Part shown: one piece after another, positions 3 through 8,347 of the stretch
How positions within the stretch are numbered: the first letter of the stretch is position 1
Layout: the number at the start of each line of letters is the position of its first letter
Source: Promethearchaeota archaeon
GTDB taxonomy: Archaea; Asgardarchaeota; Lokiarchaeia; Sigyniarchaeales; Promethearchaeaceae
Reading direction: 5' to 3'
Assembly: GCA_016933055.1 (NCBI GenBank)
Contig: JAFGBS010000034.1
Span: 30,001-62,000, forward strand
Length of the DNA stretch: 32,000 nt
The notes under the pieces: generated by a model
Seen by the model: only the letters and a program-made list of their open reading frames with translations
Databases searched by the model: none
What the model was told of the DNA's origin: nothing
Translations under genes and position numbers: made by a program

Positions 3-1160
3 ATACTTCCATTTCCCGAGTTAAATTATATTGGATTAACCTATTTTTTTCTTATACCCGATGAACTGGCGCGAGGGAAATCGAAGGCAGCAACTGCAAC
101 TCTGGTATTAAAAGAAACAGATGACCATTTCCTTTATAATAATATCCACATACTTCGCATTTTATTTGATAATGCTAGGTTAACCCTAAGAAAAAACCAC
201 GAACTATCAACCATTAAAGAAACCATTGAGGACCTACGACAAAATATACTAAAAATATGGGATTATAATCAAAAGAATTCTAATTCAAACCAATTGAAAA
301 TTGTATGCACCGGATTAGATAATGCGGGGAAAACAAGTTATATCGAGATAATTAATTCTGAATTTTCAGAATTGTTGAATGTTGCCCCAAATGAGCAAAA
401 CTCAAAACATACAGTTTCCCTCATTAAATGGGATTATAAACCAAAGGAAAAATATCATAAATCGTACTTCGAAAATGCGAATTTATATCTATATAACGTT
501 GACGTGTTGATGTATCTTATTGATGCTCAAAATCCTGACAGATTTGAGGAATCCATGGATCTTTTAAGTAGAATTTTCCATACTCTAGATAAATTAAAGG
601 TCCATCCTGAAATCCAAATAATTCTGCATAAATTTGATCCAAATATTAATTCTTCCATCAGCAGCAAGATTAACCAATTCAAGAGAACGATATCACAGAT
701 TCATTCGAATTGGTCCTTACAATTTTTTTACACATCAAAATATGATTCTAATTCGATTAAAAAGAGTTTTATTCATGCAATATCTATTTTTACTTCTGAA
801 AAGGAACCGTTTTCATCATTAATCCAGCGATTCGTGCGAAAAGTAGATGGTCATTCCGGTACATTTTTAACGCAATATGGTTTGGTGTTGGGTAAATATA
901 GTAAAACTTCTGAATGGGAGCATTTAACTTGGAATTTAAAAGATGATTTATTCAATATGTTTCAACATAGTGAAGATTTACAAATTCCCTATCTAAAGAT
1001 CCAATTTAATGGTATTACCCTATATTATTATAAAATCCAAATCAATTCTCATGAATTCCATCTAGTATTTGACTCCCCAAAGGATAGGAAAAAAATAAGA
1101 AAAAATATCGATCTTTTCATTACCCAAACCACTCCTCTTGTCCAAGACAATCTAGATTAA
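3..1160 (+). CDS. 5'-truncated multi-domain Arf/Rag-like small GTPase: N-terminal longin/uDENN-like segment, GTPase domain, C-terminal roadblock-like segment
   Basis: The frame of ORF 294..1160 has no stop back to position 3 (ILPFPELNYIGLTYFFLIPDELARGKSKAATATLVLKE...NSNQ-LKIVCT), so TTG at 294 is internal. Motifs: G1 GLDNAGKT, G4 HKFD, G5 TSKYD. The C-terminal FSSLIQRFVRKVDGHSGTFLTQYGLVLG fits a roadblock helix/hairpin pattern. Confidence 0.8.
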   Translation: MLPFPELNYIGLTYFFLIPDELARGKSKAATATLVLKETDDHFLYNNIHILRILFDNARLTLRKNHELSTIKETIEDLRQNILKIWDYNQKNSNSNQLKIVCTGLDNAGKTSYIEIINSEFSELLNVAPNEQNSKHTVSLIKWDYKPKEKYHKSYFENANLYLYNVDVLMYLIDAQNPDRFEESMDLLSRIFHTLDKLKVHPEIQIILHKFDPNINSSISSKINQFKRTISQIHSNWSLQFFYTSKYDSNSIKKSFIHAISIFTSEKEPFSSLIQRFVRKVDGHSGTFLTQYGLVLGKYSKTSEWEHLTWNLKDDLFNMFQHSEDLQIPYLKIQFNGITLYYYKIQINSHEFHLVFDSPKDRKKIRKNIDLFITQTTPLVQDNLD

Positions 1161-2416
1161 TCCTTTTTTTTAGACCGTTTGTGAATCATTCCAGTACTTA
1201 AAAGTGCTATAATTATTGAACACGCAACAATGAATGTCCCAGTGTGAAAAGGAATTGATTGAGGGGTTTTATAGTCTACTTCGAGATATGTAATATCTAT
1301 GGAGAGCGACCATCTGATATCGTTTGGATTCGAGGTTTTTATATATGGTATAAACCCCCACTCGACAACCGAGCCCTCTATCGATGGTTGAACTCCTCCC
1401 CCTAAATTTTCTCCAATGCAGACAGGAAGATGGATATAATCCATATAATTCCTATATTTTGGATTAGTCTGGGACCATGTTGGATCCATACTAATAAATC
1501 CATACCCCGGAATATAATATTCTACCCAAGCATGGCCTGGGATCGTGCCTATAGTTTCTCCGGAGGAAGTAGTTCCATAGTAGTAGGAAATTTGATATCC
1601 TGCTTCTTTTTTGGTAGCAAGGTAACCATCATCCATAATGACTAACCCGACAACTTTCCGAGCAGGGATTCCTTGGATTCGTAATAGTGTGGTAAATAAA
1701 GTTGAAAAATCACTGCAATCCCCTAATTTCAAAAGATAGGTTAAATAAGCTCCTCTAGAAACCGTTGCATCTTCATCATATTCAATATTTTTCGTAATCC
1801 AATCTAAAATTGCATCCACCTTATCAATAATCGAATTTTTGCCCTCGCAGAGACTGTTCGACAAACTAATTAAACTGGGGTTTTCCACTTGTAGATTATT
1901 CTCCGCCCCAGTTAGATTCTGATAGAGAGGATCAGTAGTATCATAAACCCCTTCATTTCTTTCTCTCAGTTTCCACAAGGTTTCTTTTAATGTAATCTCA
2001 TAACTGATGTTATACACCAGTTCGGAATCCGAATTTAGAGTACCAGCAACGTATTCCATCGTGTTATTAAAATCATCTTGAGGATCATAGAAATAGGTTG
2101 CAGAGGGATCGCAAGAATTGCTCAATATTTTCACTGACTGAAGAGGTGCAACACCTGTCATATATGGATGCGTATGATTGGAAAATCTATGAATCCACAT
2201 TTTAACACTATTTGCATCACTTCTTGACCACATTTTCCACTCATAATTCATTTGAATTTTTATTGTACTCCACTGGGAATATCCAGAAGATGGGGTTGAG
2301 AAAGAAACAGGATCTATTCCAAAAACAGGATTTATCGTTGAACTATATACCAAAATGAATAAAAATGATGTGTATAAAAAACATAGTTTTTGTTTTCGAT
2401 TGTGAAAAAGTCTCAT
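1157..2416 (-). CDS. Secreted, C-terminally membrane-anchored transglutaminase-like (TGc) domain protein
   Basis: Cys-His-Asp triad motifs GDCSDFSTLFTTLLRIQGIPAR, GHAWVEYY and SMDPTW. Basic plus hydrophobic N-terminal signal. C-terminal TM helix followed by KRSKKKD. Confidence 0.88.
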   Translation of the reverse strand: MRLFHNRKQKLCFLYTSFLFILVYSSTINPVFGIDPVSFSTPSSGYSQWSTIKIQMNYEWKMWSRSDANSVKMWIHRFSNHTHPYMTGVAPLQSVKILSNSCDPSATYFYDPQDDFNNTMEYVAGTLNSDSELVYNISYEITLKETLWKLRERNEGVYDTTDPLYQNLTGAENNLQVENPSLISLSNSLCEGKNSIIDKVDAILDWITKNIEYDEDATVSRGAYLTYLLKLGDCSDFSTLFTTLLRIQGIPARKVVGLVIMDDGYLATKKEAGYQISYYYGTTSSGETIGTIPGHAWVEYYIPGYGFISMDPTWSQTNPKYRNYMDYIHLPVCIGENLGGGVQPSIEGSVVEWGFIPYIKTSNPNDIRWSLSIDITYLEVDYKTPQSIPFHTGTFIVACSIIIALLSTGMIHKRSKKKD

Positions 2417-2487: not shown

Positions 2488-3141
2488 ATGATAACTTTGA
2501 TTTATTCAATCATACTTGTAGACGCTGATTCCGGGATTTTGTTATTGGAAAAGAAATTAAAAATTCAAAAGGAAAACAATGTCCCCGCAGATGCGTTGGC
2601 AAATTTTTTTGGGGAACTGAACAACATGATTGATGATATTCAAAAGTCTATGAAAAAGGGGCAAGACCTTACACAAAAAACTCGAGTTGTTGCGAGTGAG
2701 AACTCATCGATCACATTACATTTTCAACCTAATGCACGGATATTGATCTGTGCGATTTCTGATCCCGATGATGATACAGAAAAGATTACGAATAATTTGA
2801 AAATTGTGGGAAAACGATTTTGGTTAAAACATAAAACAGATCTGGAAATCTTCCGGAAGGAAAACTTACGAGATATTTTCAATCCCTTTGGGGTGGATAT
2901 TGAAACAATTACCTTAGGTGGTAAAATTGGGGAGAAATTTCCAAAATTACTTATTGCTGAACCAGCTCTTGAGCGAATAAAAATGATGGGAATTATTAAT
3001 CACAATGAATATAATGTAGCAAATATGTGTGATGGAAAAACTTCTGCATTCAAAATCGCTAAAAATTTGAATATCAGTTCAGATGAAGCAAAAAAAATAT
3101 TGAACAAATTAGATGAATTGGATGTTGTAAAAGTCCCGTAA
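2488..3141 (+). CDS. Longin-like domain protein with C-terminal winged helix-turn-helix
   Basis: N-terminal IYSIILVDADSGILLLEK hairpin, helix LANFFGELNNMI, strands ITLHF/ILICAISD and helix EKITNNLKIVGKRF follow the longin topology. C-terminal CDGKTSAFKIAKNLNISSDEAKKILNKL is a wHTH pattern. Confidence 0.7.
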   Translation: MITLIYSIILVDADSGILLLEKKLKIQKENNVPADALANFFGELNNMIDDIQKSMKKGQDLTQKTRVVASENSSITLHFQPNARILICAISDPDDDTEKITNNLKIVGKRFWLKHKTDLEIFRKENLRDIFNPFGVDIETITLGGKIGEKFPKLLIAEPALERIKMMGIINHNEYNVANMCDGKTSAFKIAKNLNISSDEAKKILNKLDELDVVKVP

Positions 3142-4086
3142 TCACGGATTCAATTCACTCTTCTTTTTAGCTAGCCACTCTTTATACACACTAGATTCTT
3201 TTCCTCGCCAAATTGCATTTTTTCCAGTCTCCTCGTTGTACAATTTATGAAGGTCTTCCGTGGATAAAGTTTCAATCGGTTTGGATGAATCTTTTGGTTT
3301 GGTTTCTGTTTTTTCCTTAGGTACTTCTTCAGTTTTCGATTTAGTTTTTTCTTTTAGTCTCTCTTTTTCCGATTCATCTATTCCAAGGGCTTTCTTCTTT
3401 TTAGCTAACCATTTCTTATACACACCGGATTCTTTTCCTCGCCAGATTGCATCTTTCCCGGTTTCTTCTGTGTACATTTTATGAAAATCTTCTGTGGAGA
3501 ATTTCTTTGAACTTGGTTCCTCCTTCATTGGAAGTTTTTCTTCAACTTTTGGTTTCGTCTTCGCAAGCTTCTCAGTTTGTAGAGGTTCTGCTTTCTCCTT
3601 TTCGATCTTTGTTTCTGGTGTTTTTTCAGCAGGTTTAGGTGCGGGTTTAGCTTTTTTAGGTTCAGGTATTTTTTCAGCAGGTTTAGGTGCAGGTTCAGCT
3701 TTTTTAGGTTCAGGTATTTTTTCAGCAGGTTTAGGTGCGGGTTTAGCTTTTTTAGGTTCAGGTTGTTTTGTTTCAGGTTTTGGAAGATCTTTTTCTTGTC
3801 CTTGTTTCTTCGGTTTAGTGGGTTTTGTTTTCTTCTGTTTTGTTATTTTAGCTTTTTCTGTTTCCTTTGCACGTTCAACTTGTCTAGTCAGATCATATTT
3901 TTCCATTAGATATTCAATATTCTGTTCATATTCTGACTTTCGACGTAAATCTACGGGTATTCCCAAACTTCGTGCTTCTCCAATATTTAATCCCACAGCT
4001 TTTATTTCCTTTAAAGAGTAACCGTGTCCGGGTCGGTAGCTTTTGGTCCGTGCTTTTTGAACGAGAATGTTCTTATGTTTAACCAT
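3142..4086 (-). CDS. rpl13e: 50S ribosomal protein eL13 (L13e) with long Lys/Glu/Pro-rich C-terminal extension
   Basis: N-terminal RPGHGYSLKEIKAVGLNIGEARSLGIPVDLRRKSEYEQNIEYL matches the archaeal L13e signature. ATG at 4086 is preferred because the track's GTG start at 4095 lies within an SD-like AAGTGAT. Confidence 0.85.
   Translation of the reverse strand: MVKHKNILVQKARTKSYRPGHGYSLKEIKAVGLNIGEARSLGIPVDLRRKSEYEQNIEYLMEKYDLTRQVERAKETEKAKITKQKKTKPTKPKKQGQEKDLPKPETKQPEPKKAKPAPKPAEKIPEPKKAEPAPKPAEKIPEPKKAKPAPKPAEKTPETKIEKEKAEPLQTEKLAKTKPKVEEKLPMKEEPSSKKFSTEDFHKMYTEETGKDAIWRGKESGVYKKWLAKKKKALGIDESEKERLKEKTKSKTEEVPKEKTETKPKDSSKPIETLSTEDLHKLYNEETGKNAIWRGKESSVYKEWLAKKKSELNP
3160..3498 (-). repeat. 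Two dispersed copies of a 35-aa motif within the eL13 tail (3394..3498 and 3160..3264)
   Basis: STEDFHKMYTEETGKDAIWRGKESGVYKKWLAKKK vs STEDLHKLYNEETGKNAIWRGKESSVYKEWLAKKK: 29 of 35 residues identical. Confidence 0.95.
3621..3763 (-). repeat. In-frame 48-bp tandem repeat, 3 copies (PEPKKA[K/E]PAPKPAEK[I/T])
   Basis: Unit ttttttcagcaggtttaggtgc(g/a)ggtt(t/c)agcttttttaggttcaggt(a/t) starts at 3621, 3669 and 3717. Confidence 0.97.
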
Positions 4087-4195
4087 TGGTATCACTTATT
4101 CTGCAATACGTTTTTGAATATGAGCTTCTATATCAATTTTTTGGGATTTCTCAGATTGAAATATATTTACCTTCTTGTGACTAACCTAATGTATA

Positions 4196-4693
4196 ATGGA
4201 ACACTCTTACTGGATATTTCGATCACCAGAACACAATGTCTCAATTGAAAAAGTTCCCATTTATTTTCAGCAAGTGGATTTACAAGGGGATTCTAAAGCG
4301 GGTAAAGTTATATTCGAGTCATATAACCAAATGGAAGAAATATTTGGCCCTGATGCCATCATAGAAGTATATTGGGAAACCATCGATCGTTCTATATTTC
4401 ATCAAGGTAACAGAGTTCAACAATCTTTTGATATGTATAATGCCATTGAAGTCAATATCACTAAGAAAGAAACCAGATGGAATCGATCTCACGAAAATTC
4501 CTATTGGTACGGCACAAGAAAGCAAATAATACAGAAACGATTTTATACTTCCAAACACATTCACTGTATTGTGTTATGCGACCTAACCGACCGTGTTTTT
4601 GAAATACATGCGAAAATTATTGCAAATCTGTATCCTAATTATGAAAACCTAGTACAAGAGACCATTGCGTCTCTTTTATGCCATGAAGTTTAA
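4196..4693 (+). CDS. Hypothetical soluble protein (165 aa)
   Basis: Fills the gap between eL13 and the methyltransferase with protein-like composition. No family recognised; Cys/His cluster in the C-terminal third. Confidence 0.7.
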   Translation: MEHSYWIFRSPEHNVSIEKVPIYFQQVDLQGDSKAGKVIFESYNQMEEIFGPDAIIEVYWETIDRSIFHQGNRVQQSFDMYNAIEVNITKKETRWNRSHENSYWYGTRKQIIQKRFYTSKHIHCIVLCDLTDRVFEIHAKIIANLYPNYENLVQETIASLLCHEV

Positions 4694-5968: not shown

Positions 5969-8347
5969 ATGCTTTACAACAATGACATCGATTTGGATGC
6001 TACAATCGACTATAGCACTGATGATTATCAGGAAGTTCTCTCCCGTATTGTGAGTTTGCTGCGTACTGGATTGAATAATTTGGGAGTTGGAATCAATCGT
6101 ATCAATTCGGAATTTAAAAAGGAAAACCGGCATTTTAAACGCGCCACCGAACTTCTTAACTATAAAGAATGGGTATATCGTAAACTCAATAAAACGATTG
6201 ACTCTTTACTATACAGTGAATTGCTCACCTATTTTGTAGATGATGAGAATTCAATACTAAACCATTTTATTGAAATGGGGTTATTTGATGCAGATATACT
6301 TGAGCGGTTCGACGAAATAAAGAAACGATATCCCAATCTTGTTATATATCTTAACTGGGATCACCGACTGAAAGAAAAATTAAGCGAAAAACTATATACG
6401 GAACAAAACTTTGAGAAATTATTTAAATTCGAAGATACTGAGGCAGATCTCCAAAATTTATTTTCATTGTATAATATGGCACAAAACCTTGCTATGCCCA
6501 CAGTGAATATTTCAGATGCGATTGATTATTTAATGAAAAAAACTAATTCATGGAGCGCTATTAATGAGAACGTATCTATTCTACGCCCTCTTACTCTTTT
6601 CGCAGGTGTACAACTGGCCATTCAAAATGGTATCTCAATTGATACCTCCATCTGTTCTGATGAATTATTCACACTCATCCATGCAATTGTGAATGTACTA
6701 AAAGATCCTATCTTTTCAGACCCCTATAAAGTGTACTATATCGTTAACGCTGCCAAACTTTTGGGCATAGAATTCACGGAAAACATCATTAACGGATTAA
6801 TCTCCCTAGATTATAATAGTGTATCCAAAGAAAATTTAGAACTTCATACTACAGACCGATTAGCATTAATTTTATTAATCTTTAAAGAGCTAGGACGCGT
6901 GAATAAGTTACCAGAGACTGCACGATATGTCATTTTAGACATTATAAACGAACGAGCTCAAAACGAGTCTGCATTCTGGAAAATGGAATCGATTTGGGGT
7001 TTATTGAATATAATGATAGAGACCAAATCCATCGAAGTAGACACAATTGGAGATATCTTGGAATTTACAATATCCCGTATGCATGAATTAGCAGAAAATA
7101 TTTCACTTGATGATGTAAACGGTATCGCAAAAATTTTCCTTGGTACAAGGATAATGAAAACCATTAGTTATCATTTCAATACTGATATGGTTAAGGGACT
7201 AGAACAGTATCTATTCAATGAATTACGACTTCAACATAAGACAATTCCAAAAGATATGATCGAATCATTAATAAAAGATGTTGAAAAACCTAAAGGCCCC
7301 ACAATCAAAGTAAGGGATCTGGGTTTAGCTGATACGTTTACGTCTGAATTGGAAAAATTACAGCAAATTCAACAGAAAAAGCAGCAAATTAAAGGCTCAA
7401 ATGAATTAATTGAATCTTATGATTTACAAAAACAAAAAAACCAATTAGAAGAAAAAATATTAGATAATTCTCCTCAATTGATTATTTCCTATTTGGTTCA
7501 TCCCGTCGGGATATCAAAGAATTATCTTGATAAAATTAATTTTAATTATGAGGCAATCGTGAATCCTCCAAATCATATCTATGATTCCCTTCAGAAACTC
7601 CATGAATATGTGACAATAGAACATTTACTTAAACTAGGACATCATTTCACAAAAAAAGAGGTGTTAAATGTCACTAAACCCTTCTTAAAAGGCAGTGCTT
7701 TTGGGGAAAAGGATGCATCTACACCTGATGTTGTCAGCACGTACTATGGATTGTCAATTTACCGGGATTACAATATGTTGACATTGTTAGATTTGAATGG
7801 CATCCATTATTTTCTGATGAAGGAATTGAAAGATTTCAATCCATTGAACTTGTATCAGAATGAGAAGTTATTCCTTTCTCTAAAATTGTTGGAGCAAGAA
7901 AAAATCAAGATAAGCAAGTTCCCGGAGCTCATTAATAAAATTTTGAATACAGACTTCACTGACTACCAAGATTTTAATCCATTATTGGAAACATTTGGAC
8001 AAGTTCTTGCATTAGATATGATTGGAGAAGATATCAATCGATCTCAATTAGAATCGCAGTACATGGATTTGGTTATTTCAGAAATTGATGAAGAGGGATG
8101 TATTAAACAAACAATCACGGATACAGCCAAGGTGCTTATTACTATTGGATTATTTGGAGACTATGACCGTTATTATGAAATCTGTGAGCAAATGGTAAAT
8201 TTTATAGTTGAGAAGGGGGTGTATTTTGATCCCGATCAGGTCGAACGTACATCTTCATGGGCAAATGAGAACATTGAATACGAAATCGAACTGACGAAAA
8301 GTTATTGGGCTTTACTTGCTTTAATGGCATTTAAACCTGTAAATTGA
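5969..8347 (+). CDS. Large alpha-helical protein with prenyltransferase/squalene-oxidase-repeat-like (alpha/alpha toroid) C-terminal region
   Basis: GSAFGEKDASTPDVVSTYYGLSIY and similar helical units (QTITDTAKVLITIG, IELTKSYWALLALM) resemble toroid repeats. Q/K-rich coiled-coil linker near aa 460-495. Confidence 0.55.
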   Translation: MLYNNDIDLDATIDYSTDDYQEVLSRIVSLLRTGLNNLGVGINRINSEFKKENRHFKRATELLNYKEWVYRKLNKTIDSLLYSELLTYFVDDENSILNHFIEMGLFDADILERFDEIKKRYPNLVIYLNWDHRLKEKLSEKLYTEQNFEKLFKFEDTEADLQNLFSLYNMAQNLAMPTVNISDAIDYLMKKTNSWSAINENVSILRPLTLFAGVQLAIQNGISIDTSICSDELFTLIHAIVNVLKDPIFSDPYKVYYIVNAAKLLGIEFTENIINGLISLDYNSVSKENLELHTTDRLALILLIFKELGRVNKLPETARYVILDIINERAQNESAFWKMESIWGLLNIMIETKSIEVDTIGDILEFTISRMHELAENISLDDVNGIAKIFLGTRIMKTISYHFNTDMVKGLEQYLFNELRLQHKTIPKDMIESLIKDVEKPKGPTIKVRDLGLADTFTSELEKLQQIQQKKQQIKGSNELIESYDLQKQKNQLEEKILDNSPQLIISYLVHPVGISKNYLDKINFNYEAIVNPPNHIYDSLQKLHEYVTIEHLLKLGHHFTKKEVLNVTKPFLKGSAFGEKDASTPDVVSTYYGLSIYRDYNMLTLLDLNGIHYFLMKELKDFNPLNLYQNEKLFLSLKLLEQEKIKISKFPELINKILNTDFTDYQDFNPLLETFGQVLALDMIGEDINRSQLESQYMDLVISEIDEEGCIKQTITDTAKVLITIGLFGDYDRYYEICEQMVNFIVEKGVYFDPDQVERTSSWANENIEYEIELTKSYWALLALMAFKPVN

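What the first reader, a model, noticed from the sequence alone, without database searches (positions are those of the whole stretch)
3142..4086. Ribosomal protein eL13 carries a ~245-aa appendage
Seen: a ~65-70 aa eL13 core continues without a stop into a K/E/P/T-rich linker and two copies of an apparently globular motif (314 aa total). Established: many archaeal eL13 proteins are little more than the core, while eukaryotic eL13 has an unrelated C-terminal extension. Inference: a flexible tether displaying two binding modules on the large subunit, like a built-in stalk or adaptor, or an eL13 paralog repurposed off the ribosome.
Basis: partly seen in the sequence, partly recalled or inferred. 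Interest (0 to 1): 0.7.

Follow-up and report, generated by a model that had tools for sequence, protein, structure and literature searches.

The report
Asgard eL13 arm with swapped end-domain
This archaeon's only gene for ribosomal protein eL13 does carry a long flexible arm ending in two small folded modules, but such arms are normal for Asgard eL13; what is unusual is that the usual end-domain has been replaced by an undescribed 42-residue module that the same group of archaea also attaches to RNA polymerase and an initiation factor.

Summary
Window 3145-4086 (- strand) encodes a 314-aa protein with an eL13 core (aa 1-71), a disordered Lys/Pro/Glu linker (aa 72-194, including a 48-bp x3 in-frame repeat), and two copies of a 42-aa helix/beta-hairpin/helix module. 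It is the only eL13 found in the genome. Independent metagenome contigs show no stop after the core.

The reading is partly supported. Long tails are routine on Asgard eL13. In 21 of 28 further orthologs sampled the arm ends in one or two helix-hairpin-helix (HhH) domains. This scan noted that before on another genome (e1-5396716).

Here, and in nine metagenomic relatives forming one clade, HhH is replaced by a module with no Pfam family. The module was found only in this order of Lokiarchaeia (58/58 good genomes of families f1+f3, 0/92 other Asgard genomes). It sits on RpoA' nearly order-wide and on many unrelated proteins.

In this genome it also replaces the HhH that sister lineages carry on aIF2-gamma. 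These two independent swaps, the Lys-rich linkers and a local match to the RNase H1 hybrid-binding domain make a tethered nucleic-acid-binding anchor my best guess (about 50%). A protein-hub or localisation tag is the main rival.

The parts
3145..4086 (-). Complete eL13 coding sequence, 314 aa (stop codon at 3142-3144)
   Evidence: ORF list and translation. Pfam L13e E 8e-10. Only significant eL13 match in the genome.
3874..4086 (-). eL13 core, aa 1-71
   Evidence: Pfam and NCBIfam matches. Best solved relative is eL13 chain 9e6q_AH, E 5.5e-10. AF2 pLDDT 75-83.
3505..3873 (-). Lys/Pro/Glu/Ala-rich disordered linker, aa 72-194, net charge +17
   Evidence: Composition. pLDDT under 50. Length and sequence vary among homologs but the K/P-rich character is kept.
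3613..3763 (.). 48-bp tandem repeat of 3.1 copies inside the linker, encoding a 16-aa KPAPKPAEKIPEPKKA-type unit
   Evidence: Tandem Repeats Finder, 94% matches. Independent contigs break here. P0002 and P0003 differ by the copy number of an analogous repeat.
3379..3504 (-). Module copy 1, aa 195-236 (helix, beta-hairpin, helix; ETGK-x-AIWRGK motif)
   Evidence: Alignment A1. AF2 pLDDT 86-90. Module profile E 1e-24.
3271..3378 (-). Second linker, aa 237-272, K/E-rich and neutral
   Evidence: Composition. pLDDT under 50 for aa 244-266.
3145..3270 (-). Module copy 2, aa 273-314, at the C-terminus
   Evidence: Alignment A1. AF2 pLDDT 88-90. Module profile E 1e-24.

Best explanation
This is the genome's single, functional eL13 gene.

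Like most Asgard eL13 proteins it consists of the ribosome-embedded core, a long disordered lysine-rich linker, and a small folded end-domain that can roam around the large subunit.

In most Asgard lineages the end-domain is one or two helix-hairpin-helix (HhH) domains. In the clade of this organism the HhH was replaced once by a 42-residue helix/beta-hairpin/helix module, which was later duplicated in the P0001/P0002 branch.

The module was found only in one order of Lokiarchaeia. There it is a promiscuous terminal domain. It is nearly universal on the C-terminal tail of RNA polymerase subunit A', and it also occurs on aIF2-gamma, MetAP, ABC and AAA+ ATPases, small GTPases, LRR and signalling proteins, and many tiny proteins.

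My inference is that the lysine-rich linker and the module together form a tethered, sequence-unspecific nucleic-acid anchor, most likely for structured RNA or duplex. It would keep the ribosome next to a nucleic-acid partner, or keep a partner next to the ribosome, doing the same job as the HhH it replaced.

Shown: the anatomy, single copy, conservation, distribution and the domain swaps.
Inferred: the ligand.
For: Anatomy and authenticity.

Fusion conserved: nine homologs have core + K/P-rich linker + one or two modules. They form one clade in a core tree (UFboot 95 / SH-aLRT 97).

Tails are the Asgard norm:
- eL13 frames range from 70 to 400 aa.
- 19 of the first 20 sampled loci, from 14 families, carry HhH-type ends. 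Pfam HHH_5 was confirmed on all 6 tested (E 1e-3 to 5e-15).
- Same-family genera g3 and g6 also have HhH-like ends where the frame is complete.

Module distribution:
- 153/161 genomes of the class.
- 58/58 genomes at or above 90% completeness in families f1+f3, against 0/92 other Asgard genomes.
- 302 cluster representatives in 1.84 billion proteins.
- Hosts include RpoA', LRR, beta-helix, response regulators, Ras/Roc and MetAP, and ABC_tran and AAA_5 proteins.

Second independent swap: most Lokiarchaeales aIF2-gamma proteins have an N-terminal extension of about 110 aa. In family f3 it is HHH_5 plus a K-rich linker. In f1 genera g4 and g5 it is a bare histone-H1-like K/S/T tail. In one genome it is a Cys-rich, zinc-ribbon-like piece. 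In this genome it is the module plus a K-rich linker.

Interchange with HhH, poly-Lys tails and a zinc-ribbon-like piece points to polyanion or nucleic-acid binding.

Local similarity to the RNase H1 hybrid-binding domain:
- Pfam Cauli_VI matches 9/16 module copies, best E 1e-3, 20.6 bits against a cut-off of 21.
- The module profile scores human and yeast HBD at 11-13 bits, and 0 of 2000 shuffles reach that.
Against: - No binding was measured or modelled.
- The HBD match covers only 16-20 residues (hairpin plus the Trp helix start). It is below Pfam's cut-off and lacks the HBD's second half, which holds several of its nucleic-acid contacts (my knowledge of the 3BSU complex).
- Fold searches gave no convincing nucleic-acid-binding match (best Z 4.1).
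- The module also sits on membrane proteins, ABC/AAA+ ATPases, LRR and Ras-like GTPases, some through acidic linkers. There a nucleic-acid anchor is not the obvious need, and a protein or localisation tag fits better.
- The module itself is only mildly basic (net +1 to +5).
- HhH domains can also mediate protein contacts, so the swap argument is not decisive.
Confidence: 0.5

Rival explanations
1. The module is a protein-protein docking or localisation tag. It would bind one common hub of these cells, such as a scaffold protein, cytoskeletal filament, membrane surface or chaperone/protease adaptor, and so place many unrelated proteins, including ribosomes and RNA polymerase, at the same site.
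For: - The hosts are extremely diverse, and the module is always terminal on a flexible linker. This is typical of docking modules.
- It occurs at the C-terminus of Ras-family GTPases, where eukaryotes place membrane anchors (and my knowledge).
- Some linkers are acidic.
- Proteins with 3-8 copies exist.
- Most invariant residues (T15, G16, A19, G23, T/S26, W32) look structural rather than ligand-specific (inference).
Against: - No candidate hub was identified.
- On eL13 and aIF2-gamma the module replaces HhH and alternates with poly-Lys tails, which are nucleic-acid-type elements.
- The villin-headpiece (F-actin) resemblance that I suspected by eye is not supported: the profile score is about 0 and 500-706 of 2000 shuffles do as well.
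Confidence: 0.3
2. Modules bind each other. The two copies on eL13 would then recruit module-bearing RNA polymerase and aIF2-gamma to the ribosome, coupling transcription, initiation and translation.
For: In this genome the only four module proteins are eL13 (two copies), RpoA', aIF2-gamma and one unknown protein. That is a suggestive set.
Against: - In the large sister family f3 the module is on RpoA' but eL13 and aIF2-gamma carry HhH. Homotypic recruitment to the ribosome therefore cannot be the general role.
- Nothing indicates self-association.
Confidence: 0.07
3. The tail is not functional. It would be an assembly or annotation artefact (lost stop, chimeric contig), or a decaying low-complexity extension, or the gene is an off-ribosome paralog.
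For: - The independent short-read contigs break inside the 48-bp repeat, so the exact repeat number is unverified.
- The genome is 91% complete, so a second eL13 cannot be fully excluded.
Against: - Contigs from two studies match both sides with zero differences, and the repeat unit is a multiple of three.
- Nine homologs conserve the fusion, and the modules are far more conserved than the linker.
- Both modules fold confidently.
- Only one eL13 match was found in the genome.
Confidence: 0.03

Closest known systems
Ribosomal protein eL13 (Pfam PF01294; NCBIfam NF008914; best solved relative PDB 9E6Q chain AH, 157 aa)
   Same: The core aa 10-71 aligns with eL13 of archaea and eukaryotes, including the G-x-G-[FY]-S and VD-x-RR-[KR] motifs. 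It is a single-copy gene.
   Different: The core is followed by 243 residues unrelated to the eukaryotic C-terminal helices. It scores below NCBIfam's equivalog cut-off (58 against 96 bits) because only part of that model is matched.
Asgard eL13 with HhH arm (core + charged linker + one or two HHH_5 domains). This scan noted it earlier on another genome (e1-5396716). I found no paper describing it.
   Same: Same architecture and same position: core, disordered charged linker, and one or two small end-domains.
   Different: The end-domain here is not HhH. No HHH_5 hit occurs on this protein. Instead there are two copies of the 42-aa module. Other f1 genera use yet other ends.
RNase H1 N-terminal hybrid-binding domain (Pfam Cauli_VI, PF01693; PDB 3BSU, 1QHK)
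   Same: A local motif of the form A-[IV]-x-R-G-[KR]-x-[TS]-G-x-[YF]-x-x-W spans a beta-hairpin and the start of a helix with identical spacing.
   Different: - Only about 20 of 44 positions match, just under the Pfam cut-off.
- The module has an extra N-terminal helix and lacks the third strand and last helix.
- A circular permutation does not improve the score.
- No canonical Cauli_VI was found in 151 Asgard genomes.
Lysine-rich RNA- or ribosome-binding extensions of eukaryotic translation factors (eIF2-beta K-boxes, MetAP2 N-terminal Lys blocks). Cited from my own knowledge.
   Same: Basic flexible extensions on initiation-factor and MetAP homologs. Here they are K-rich linkers on aIF2-gamma and MetAP that end in the module.
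   Different: No sequence relation. Here a folded module caps the linker. The eukaryotic K-boxes are on eIF2-beta, not eIF2-gamma.

Membership tests
Ribosomal protein eL13 (PF01294 / NF008914) | Score above the curated Pfam gathering threshold | tested here: met
   39.3 bits against a 24.9 cut-off, E 8e-10, aa 16-112.
Ribosomal protein eL13 (PF01294 / NF008914) | Score above the NCBIfam equivalog cut-off for archaeal L13e | tested here: not met
   58.2 bits against 96, with profile positions 21-72 of 83 matched. None of 400 Asgard genomes reaches this cut-off, so the model is too strict for the phylum.
Ribosomal protein eL13 (PF01294 / NF008914) | Sole copy in the genome, so it must serve the ribosome | tested here: met
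   One significant match in a genome 91% complete. The second hit has E 0.17 and internal stops.
Ribosomal protein eL13 (PF01294 / NF008914) | Physical presence in the large subunit | not testable with these tools
   Needs ribosome proteomics or cryo-EM.
Asgard eL13-HhH arm | C-terminal HHH_5 domain(s) after a charged linker | tested here: not met
   No HhH family matches this protein at E<=1. Orthologs do match, with HHH_5 E 1e-3 to 5e-15.
RNase H1 hybrid-binding domain (Cauli_VI, PF01693) | Score above the Pfam gathering threshold over the whole 44-position domain | tested here: not met
   20.6 bits against 21, with positions 4-23 only. 9/16 module copies match, best E 1e-3.
RNase H1 hybrid-binding domain (Cauli_VI, PF01693) | Similarity beyond chance to solved HBDs | tested here: inconclusive
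   11-13 bits to human and yeast HBD, and 0/2000 shuffles reach it, but over 16 residues only. PDB profile search gives E 0.16 and 0.43.
RNase H1 hybrid-binding domain (Cauli_VI, PF01693) | Same fold (three strands, two helices) | tested here: inconclusive
   The model is helix-hairpin-helix. HBD chains are not among the listed fold matches.
Villin headpiece (F-actin binding) | Sequence similarity to HP35 / VHP | tested here: not met
   Module profile against HP35 scores -0.1 to -0.7 bits, and 500-706 of 2000 shuffles do as well. No VHP hit in Pfam at E<=10 or in the PDB.
New 42-aa 'ETGK-x-A-x-W-x-G-K' module family of Lokiarchaeales | Match to the module profile, terminal position on a flexible linker, and lineage restriction | tested here: met
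   Two copies at E 1e-24. The family has 302 cluster representatives. It was found in 58/58 f1+f3 genomes and 0/92 other Asgard genomes.

The most novel reading that the evidence does not exclude
The 42-aa module is an order-specific address tag that brings RNA polymerase (A' tail), the ribosome (eL13), initiation factor aIF2 and dozens of other proteins to one common cellular ligand. That ligand could be the supersized rRNA expansion segments of Lokiarchaeia, the nucleoid or a cytoskeletal element. If so, it would be a prokaryotic system for spatially organising gene expression, built from swappable end-domains on flexible arms.
Probability: 0.15. Interest if true: 0.8.

Novelty: new variant of a known kind. 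Interest (0 to 1): 0.55.

Why it matters

This work shows three things:
- eL13 in Asgard archaea routinely carries a mobile arm with a small end-domain.
- The end-domain is exchanged between lineages (HhH, the new module, and others).
- The same exchange happens on aIF2-gamma.

It also defines a previously unnamed domain family that marks one order of Lokiarchaeia and decorates RNA polymerase nearly order-wide. Finding it would say what these ribosome and polymerase arms are for.

Tried and rejected
- Villin-headpiece homology, suspected by eye from the TEDF start and the W...KK..LGL end, was rejected.
- A circular permutation of the RNase H1 HBD adds no score over the unpermuted domain.
- Fold searches of the module model found nothing convincing. 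Foldseek against the PDB gave nothing at E<=0.001. VIA-align wide gave best Z 4.1 with unrelated helical hits. The ESM Atlas returned only other module-bearing Promethearchaeota proteins.
- Complex prediction on two copies of the module gave no answer (score 0.02). This is not evidence either way.
- Canonical Cauli_VI domains were not found in 151 Asgard genomes.
- For expression, no RNA holder was listed. The two metatranscriptome runs of the same study held none of the stretch.
- Literature searches found no paper on an eL13 HhH tail or on this module. The 9E6Q preprint does not mention eL13.
- A Pfam scan of the C-terminal part of the 303-aa module protein found no family.
- The C-terminal domain of eL13 in genus g4 gave only a weak Mnd1 winged-helix hint (E 0.11). 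The SAP-like end in g5 is by eye only.
- The position of the eL13 C-terminus relative to ES9/ES39 could not be established from the papers read. Those papers place eukaryotic eL13 in the domain I cluster, with its C-terminal helix near the L1-stalk side.

Full report
**1. What is there**

- The - strand ORF at 3145-4086 (stop 3142-3144) gives 314 aa from the ATG at 4086. An in-frame GTG at 4095 would add three residues. Homologs start M-x-K-[RH]-[QK], which fits the ATG.
- Pfam Ribosomal_L13e matches aa 16-112 above its cut-off (39.3 against 24.9 bits). NCBIfam's archaeal L13e model matches aa 10-61 (E 4.5e-16).
- The best solved relative is an archaeal eL13, chain 9e6q_AH (E 5.5e-10). The eukaryotic eL13s follow it.
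- A whole-genome search with PF01294 finds only this gene. The second hit has E 0.17 and internal stops. The genome is 91% complete.

**2. Anatomy of the tail**

- aa 72-194 is a K37/P24/E20/A13-rich linker with net charge +17.
- It includes a 48-bp tandem repeat of 3.1 copies at 3613-3763, which encodes a 16-residue KPAPKPAEK-type unit.
- Two 42-aa modules (aa 195-236 and 273-314) are 71% identical to each other. They are separated by a 36-aa K/E linker.
- AlphaFold2 on the module alignment gives helix 4-15, a beta-hairpin at 20-25 and helix 27-40, with mean pLDDT 85.
- The full-length model gives pLDDT 75-83 for the core, under 50 for both linkers and 86-90 for both modules.

**3. Is the fusion real?**

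- Contigs assembled independently from two metagenome studies (a sediment sample and a hot-spring sample) match 3000-3650 and 3734-4250 without a single difference. They break only within the 48-bp repeat. The core-to-linker junction near 3874 is therefore confirmed.
- The repeat number cannot alter the frame, because 48 bp is 16 codons.
- Nine homologous proteins from metagenomes keep the order core, K/P-rich linker, one or two modules. The modules are far better conserved than the linkers.

**4. Are long tails unusual?**

They are not.

- NCBIfam L13e hits in 283 of 400 Asgard genomes lie in reading frames of about 70 to 400 aa.
- I fetched 20 loci from 14 families. In 19 of them the core is followed by a charged linker and one or two domains of the type L-x-G-[LI]-G-x-x-T-x-x-K-L. 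The remaining one (L020, family f18) has an acidic, low-complexity tail.
- Pfam calls these domains HHH_5 in all six that I scanned (E 1e-3 to 5e-15).
- Within the window's own family, genera g3 and g6 also have HhH-like ends where the frame is complete.
- Genus g4 has a K/T/P linker plus a different domain of about 70 aa, with only a weak winged-helix hint.
- Genus g5 has a K-rich linker with a short helical end.
I reached it here independently.
- I found no paper that describes it.

**5. The swap**

In a maximum-likelihood tree of the core, the nine module-tailed eL13s form one clade (95/97 support). The two-module forms are sisters. The simplest history is one replacement of HhH by the module, followed by a duplication.

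**6. What is the module?**

- It has no Pfam family.
- A profile of 16 copies finds 302 cluster representatives among 1.84 billion proteins.
- It matches 153 of 161 genomes of the class.
- Among genomes at or above 90% completeness, it matches 58 of 58 in families f1+f3 and 0 of 92 in all other Asgard families.
- Names attached to relatives, and Atlas taxa, say Promethearchaeia / Lokiarchaeia.
- The best-conserved host is RpoA'. Its frame is 882-915 aa in other Asgard archaea, 975-1040 aa in f3 and about 1190-1200 aa in f1 genus g4. The extra part is a linker plus one to three modules.
- Other hosts are MetAP, ABC and AAA+ ATPases, Ras/Roc GTPases, LRR and beta-helix proteins, response regulators and kinases, a SWIM protein, membrane proteins and many proteins of 50-140 aa.
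- In this genome only four proteins carry it: eL13, RpoA', aIF2-gamma and a 303-aa protein of unknown family.

**7. A second, independent swap**

- Most Lokiarchaeales aIF2-gamma genes have an N-terminal extension of about 110 aa that is absent in the outgroup families.
- In f3 it is an HHH_5 domain plus a K-rich linker.
- In f1 genera g4 and g5 it is only a histone-H1-like K/S/T tail.
- In one f3 genome it is a Cys-rich, zinc-ribbon-like piece.
- In this genome it is the module plus a K-rich linker.
- The module therefore stands where HhH stands in relatives on two different proteins, once at a C-terminus and once at an N-terminus.

**8. Relation to known domains**

- Pfam Cauli_VI (the RNase H1 hybrid-binding domain) matches 9 of 16 module copies just below its cut-off.
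- The module profile scores the human and yeast domains at 11-13 bits, which none of 2000 shuffles reach. The match covers only the hairpin and the Trp at the helix start.
- A circular permutation adds nothing.
- A resemblance to the villin headpiece that I suspected by eye is not supported.
- Fold searches were uninformative.

**9. How it most likely works**

Shown: a ribosomal core with a long disordered basic arm and two folded end-modules, conserved in a clade, and end-domains exchanged among HhH, the module and other small domains.

Inferred: the arm is a tethered anchor for a polyanion, most likely structured RNA or duplex nucleic acid. Three observations point that way.
- The module replaces HhH twice.
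- It alternates with bare poly-Lys tails.
- It shares a local motif with a duplex-binding domain.

I put this at about 50%. The main rival, at about 30%, is a protein-hub or localisation tag. That reading is favoured by the very diverse hosts and by the acidic linkers on some of them. Homotypic coupling of polymerase and ribosome, and artefact, are unlikely.

**10. Verdict**

The finding is real but less singular than it looked, because tails on Asgard eL13 are routine. The value lies in three things: the domain swap, the newly delimited order-specific module family, and its presence on RNA polymerase, aIF2-gamma and eL13.

Noticed in passing
L003:2001-5093 (G000 C22:22083-25175): RNA polymerase subunit A' of this genome has a C-terminal tail of about 140 aa: a Lys-rich linker plus one module. 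The tail is order-wide (frames of 975-1040 aa against 882-915 aa in other Asgard archaea). One same-family genome (G012, L051) has three modules joined by acidic linkers.
   Followed up: partly
L004:2001-3593 (G000 C22:158421-160013); L042-L050: aIF2-gamma of Lokiarchaeales carries an N-terminal extension of about 110 aa whose end varies by lineage: HHH_5 in f3, a histone-H1-like K/S/T tail in f1 g4/g5, a Cys-rich zinc-ribbon-like piece in G024, and the 42-aa module here.
   Followed up: partly
L005:2001-2909 (- strand; G000 C17:413697-414605): A 303-aa protein has an N-terminal module, a strongly acidic linker and a C-terminal part of about 170 aa with no Pfam match.
   Followed up: partly
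L054, L053 (G012, G014) and L052 (G015): In same-family genera, eL13 ends in other domains. One is a conserved domain of about 70 aa with a weak Mnd1 winged-helix hint (E 0.11). The other is a short end, LTKLKKADLLAMLK, that looks SAP/HeH-like by eye only.
   Followed up: partly
L028-L031 (genus g6 of family f1): These eL13 genes seem to lack the N-terminal part of the core. The alignment starts at the F-S-L-K-E motif, which hints at a shortened core or a misplaced start.
   Followed up: no
window 3-1157 (+), 1157-2416 (-), 2488-3141 (+): The neighbours are a Gtr1/RagA-like small GTPase, a transglutaminase-like protein with an N-terminal hydrophobic segment, and a 217-aa protein with a weak C-terminal winged-helix hit. 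The stop of that 217-aa gene abuts the eL13 stop in convergent orientation. eL13 is not in a ribosomal-protein operon.
   Followed up: partly
window 5969-8347 (+) and 4196-4693 (+): ORFs of 792 aa and 165 aa have no Pfam family at E<=0.01.
   Followed up: no
P0001 and P0002 (alignment A1): The first module of P0001 resembles the second module of P0002, and the second resembles the first (F-x-K-M-Y against L-H-K-L-Y types). This suggests independent duplications, rearrangement or gene conversion.
   Followed up: no
P0002 and P0003: Two otherwise identical eL13 homologs differ only in the copy number of a PKPEPVKVKET-type linker repeat. Linker length therefore varies between close strains, as the 48-bp repeat here would allow.
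   Followed up: no
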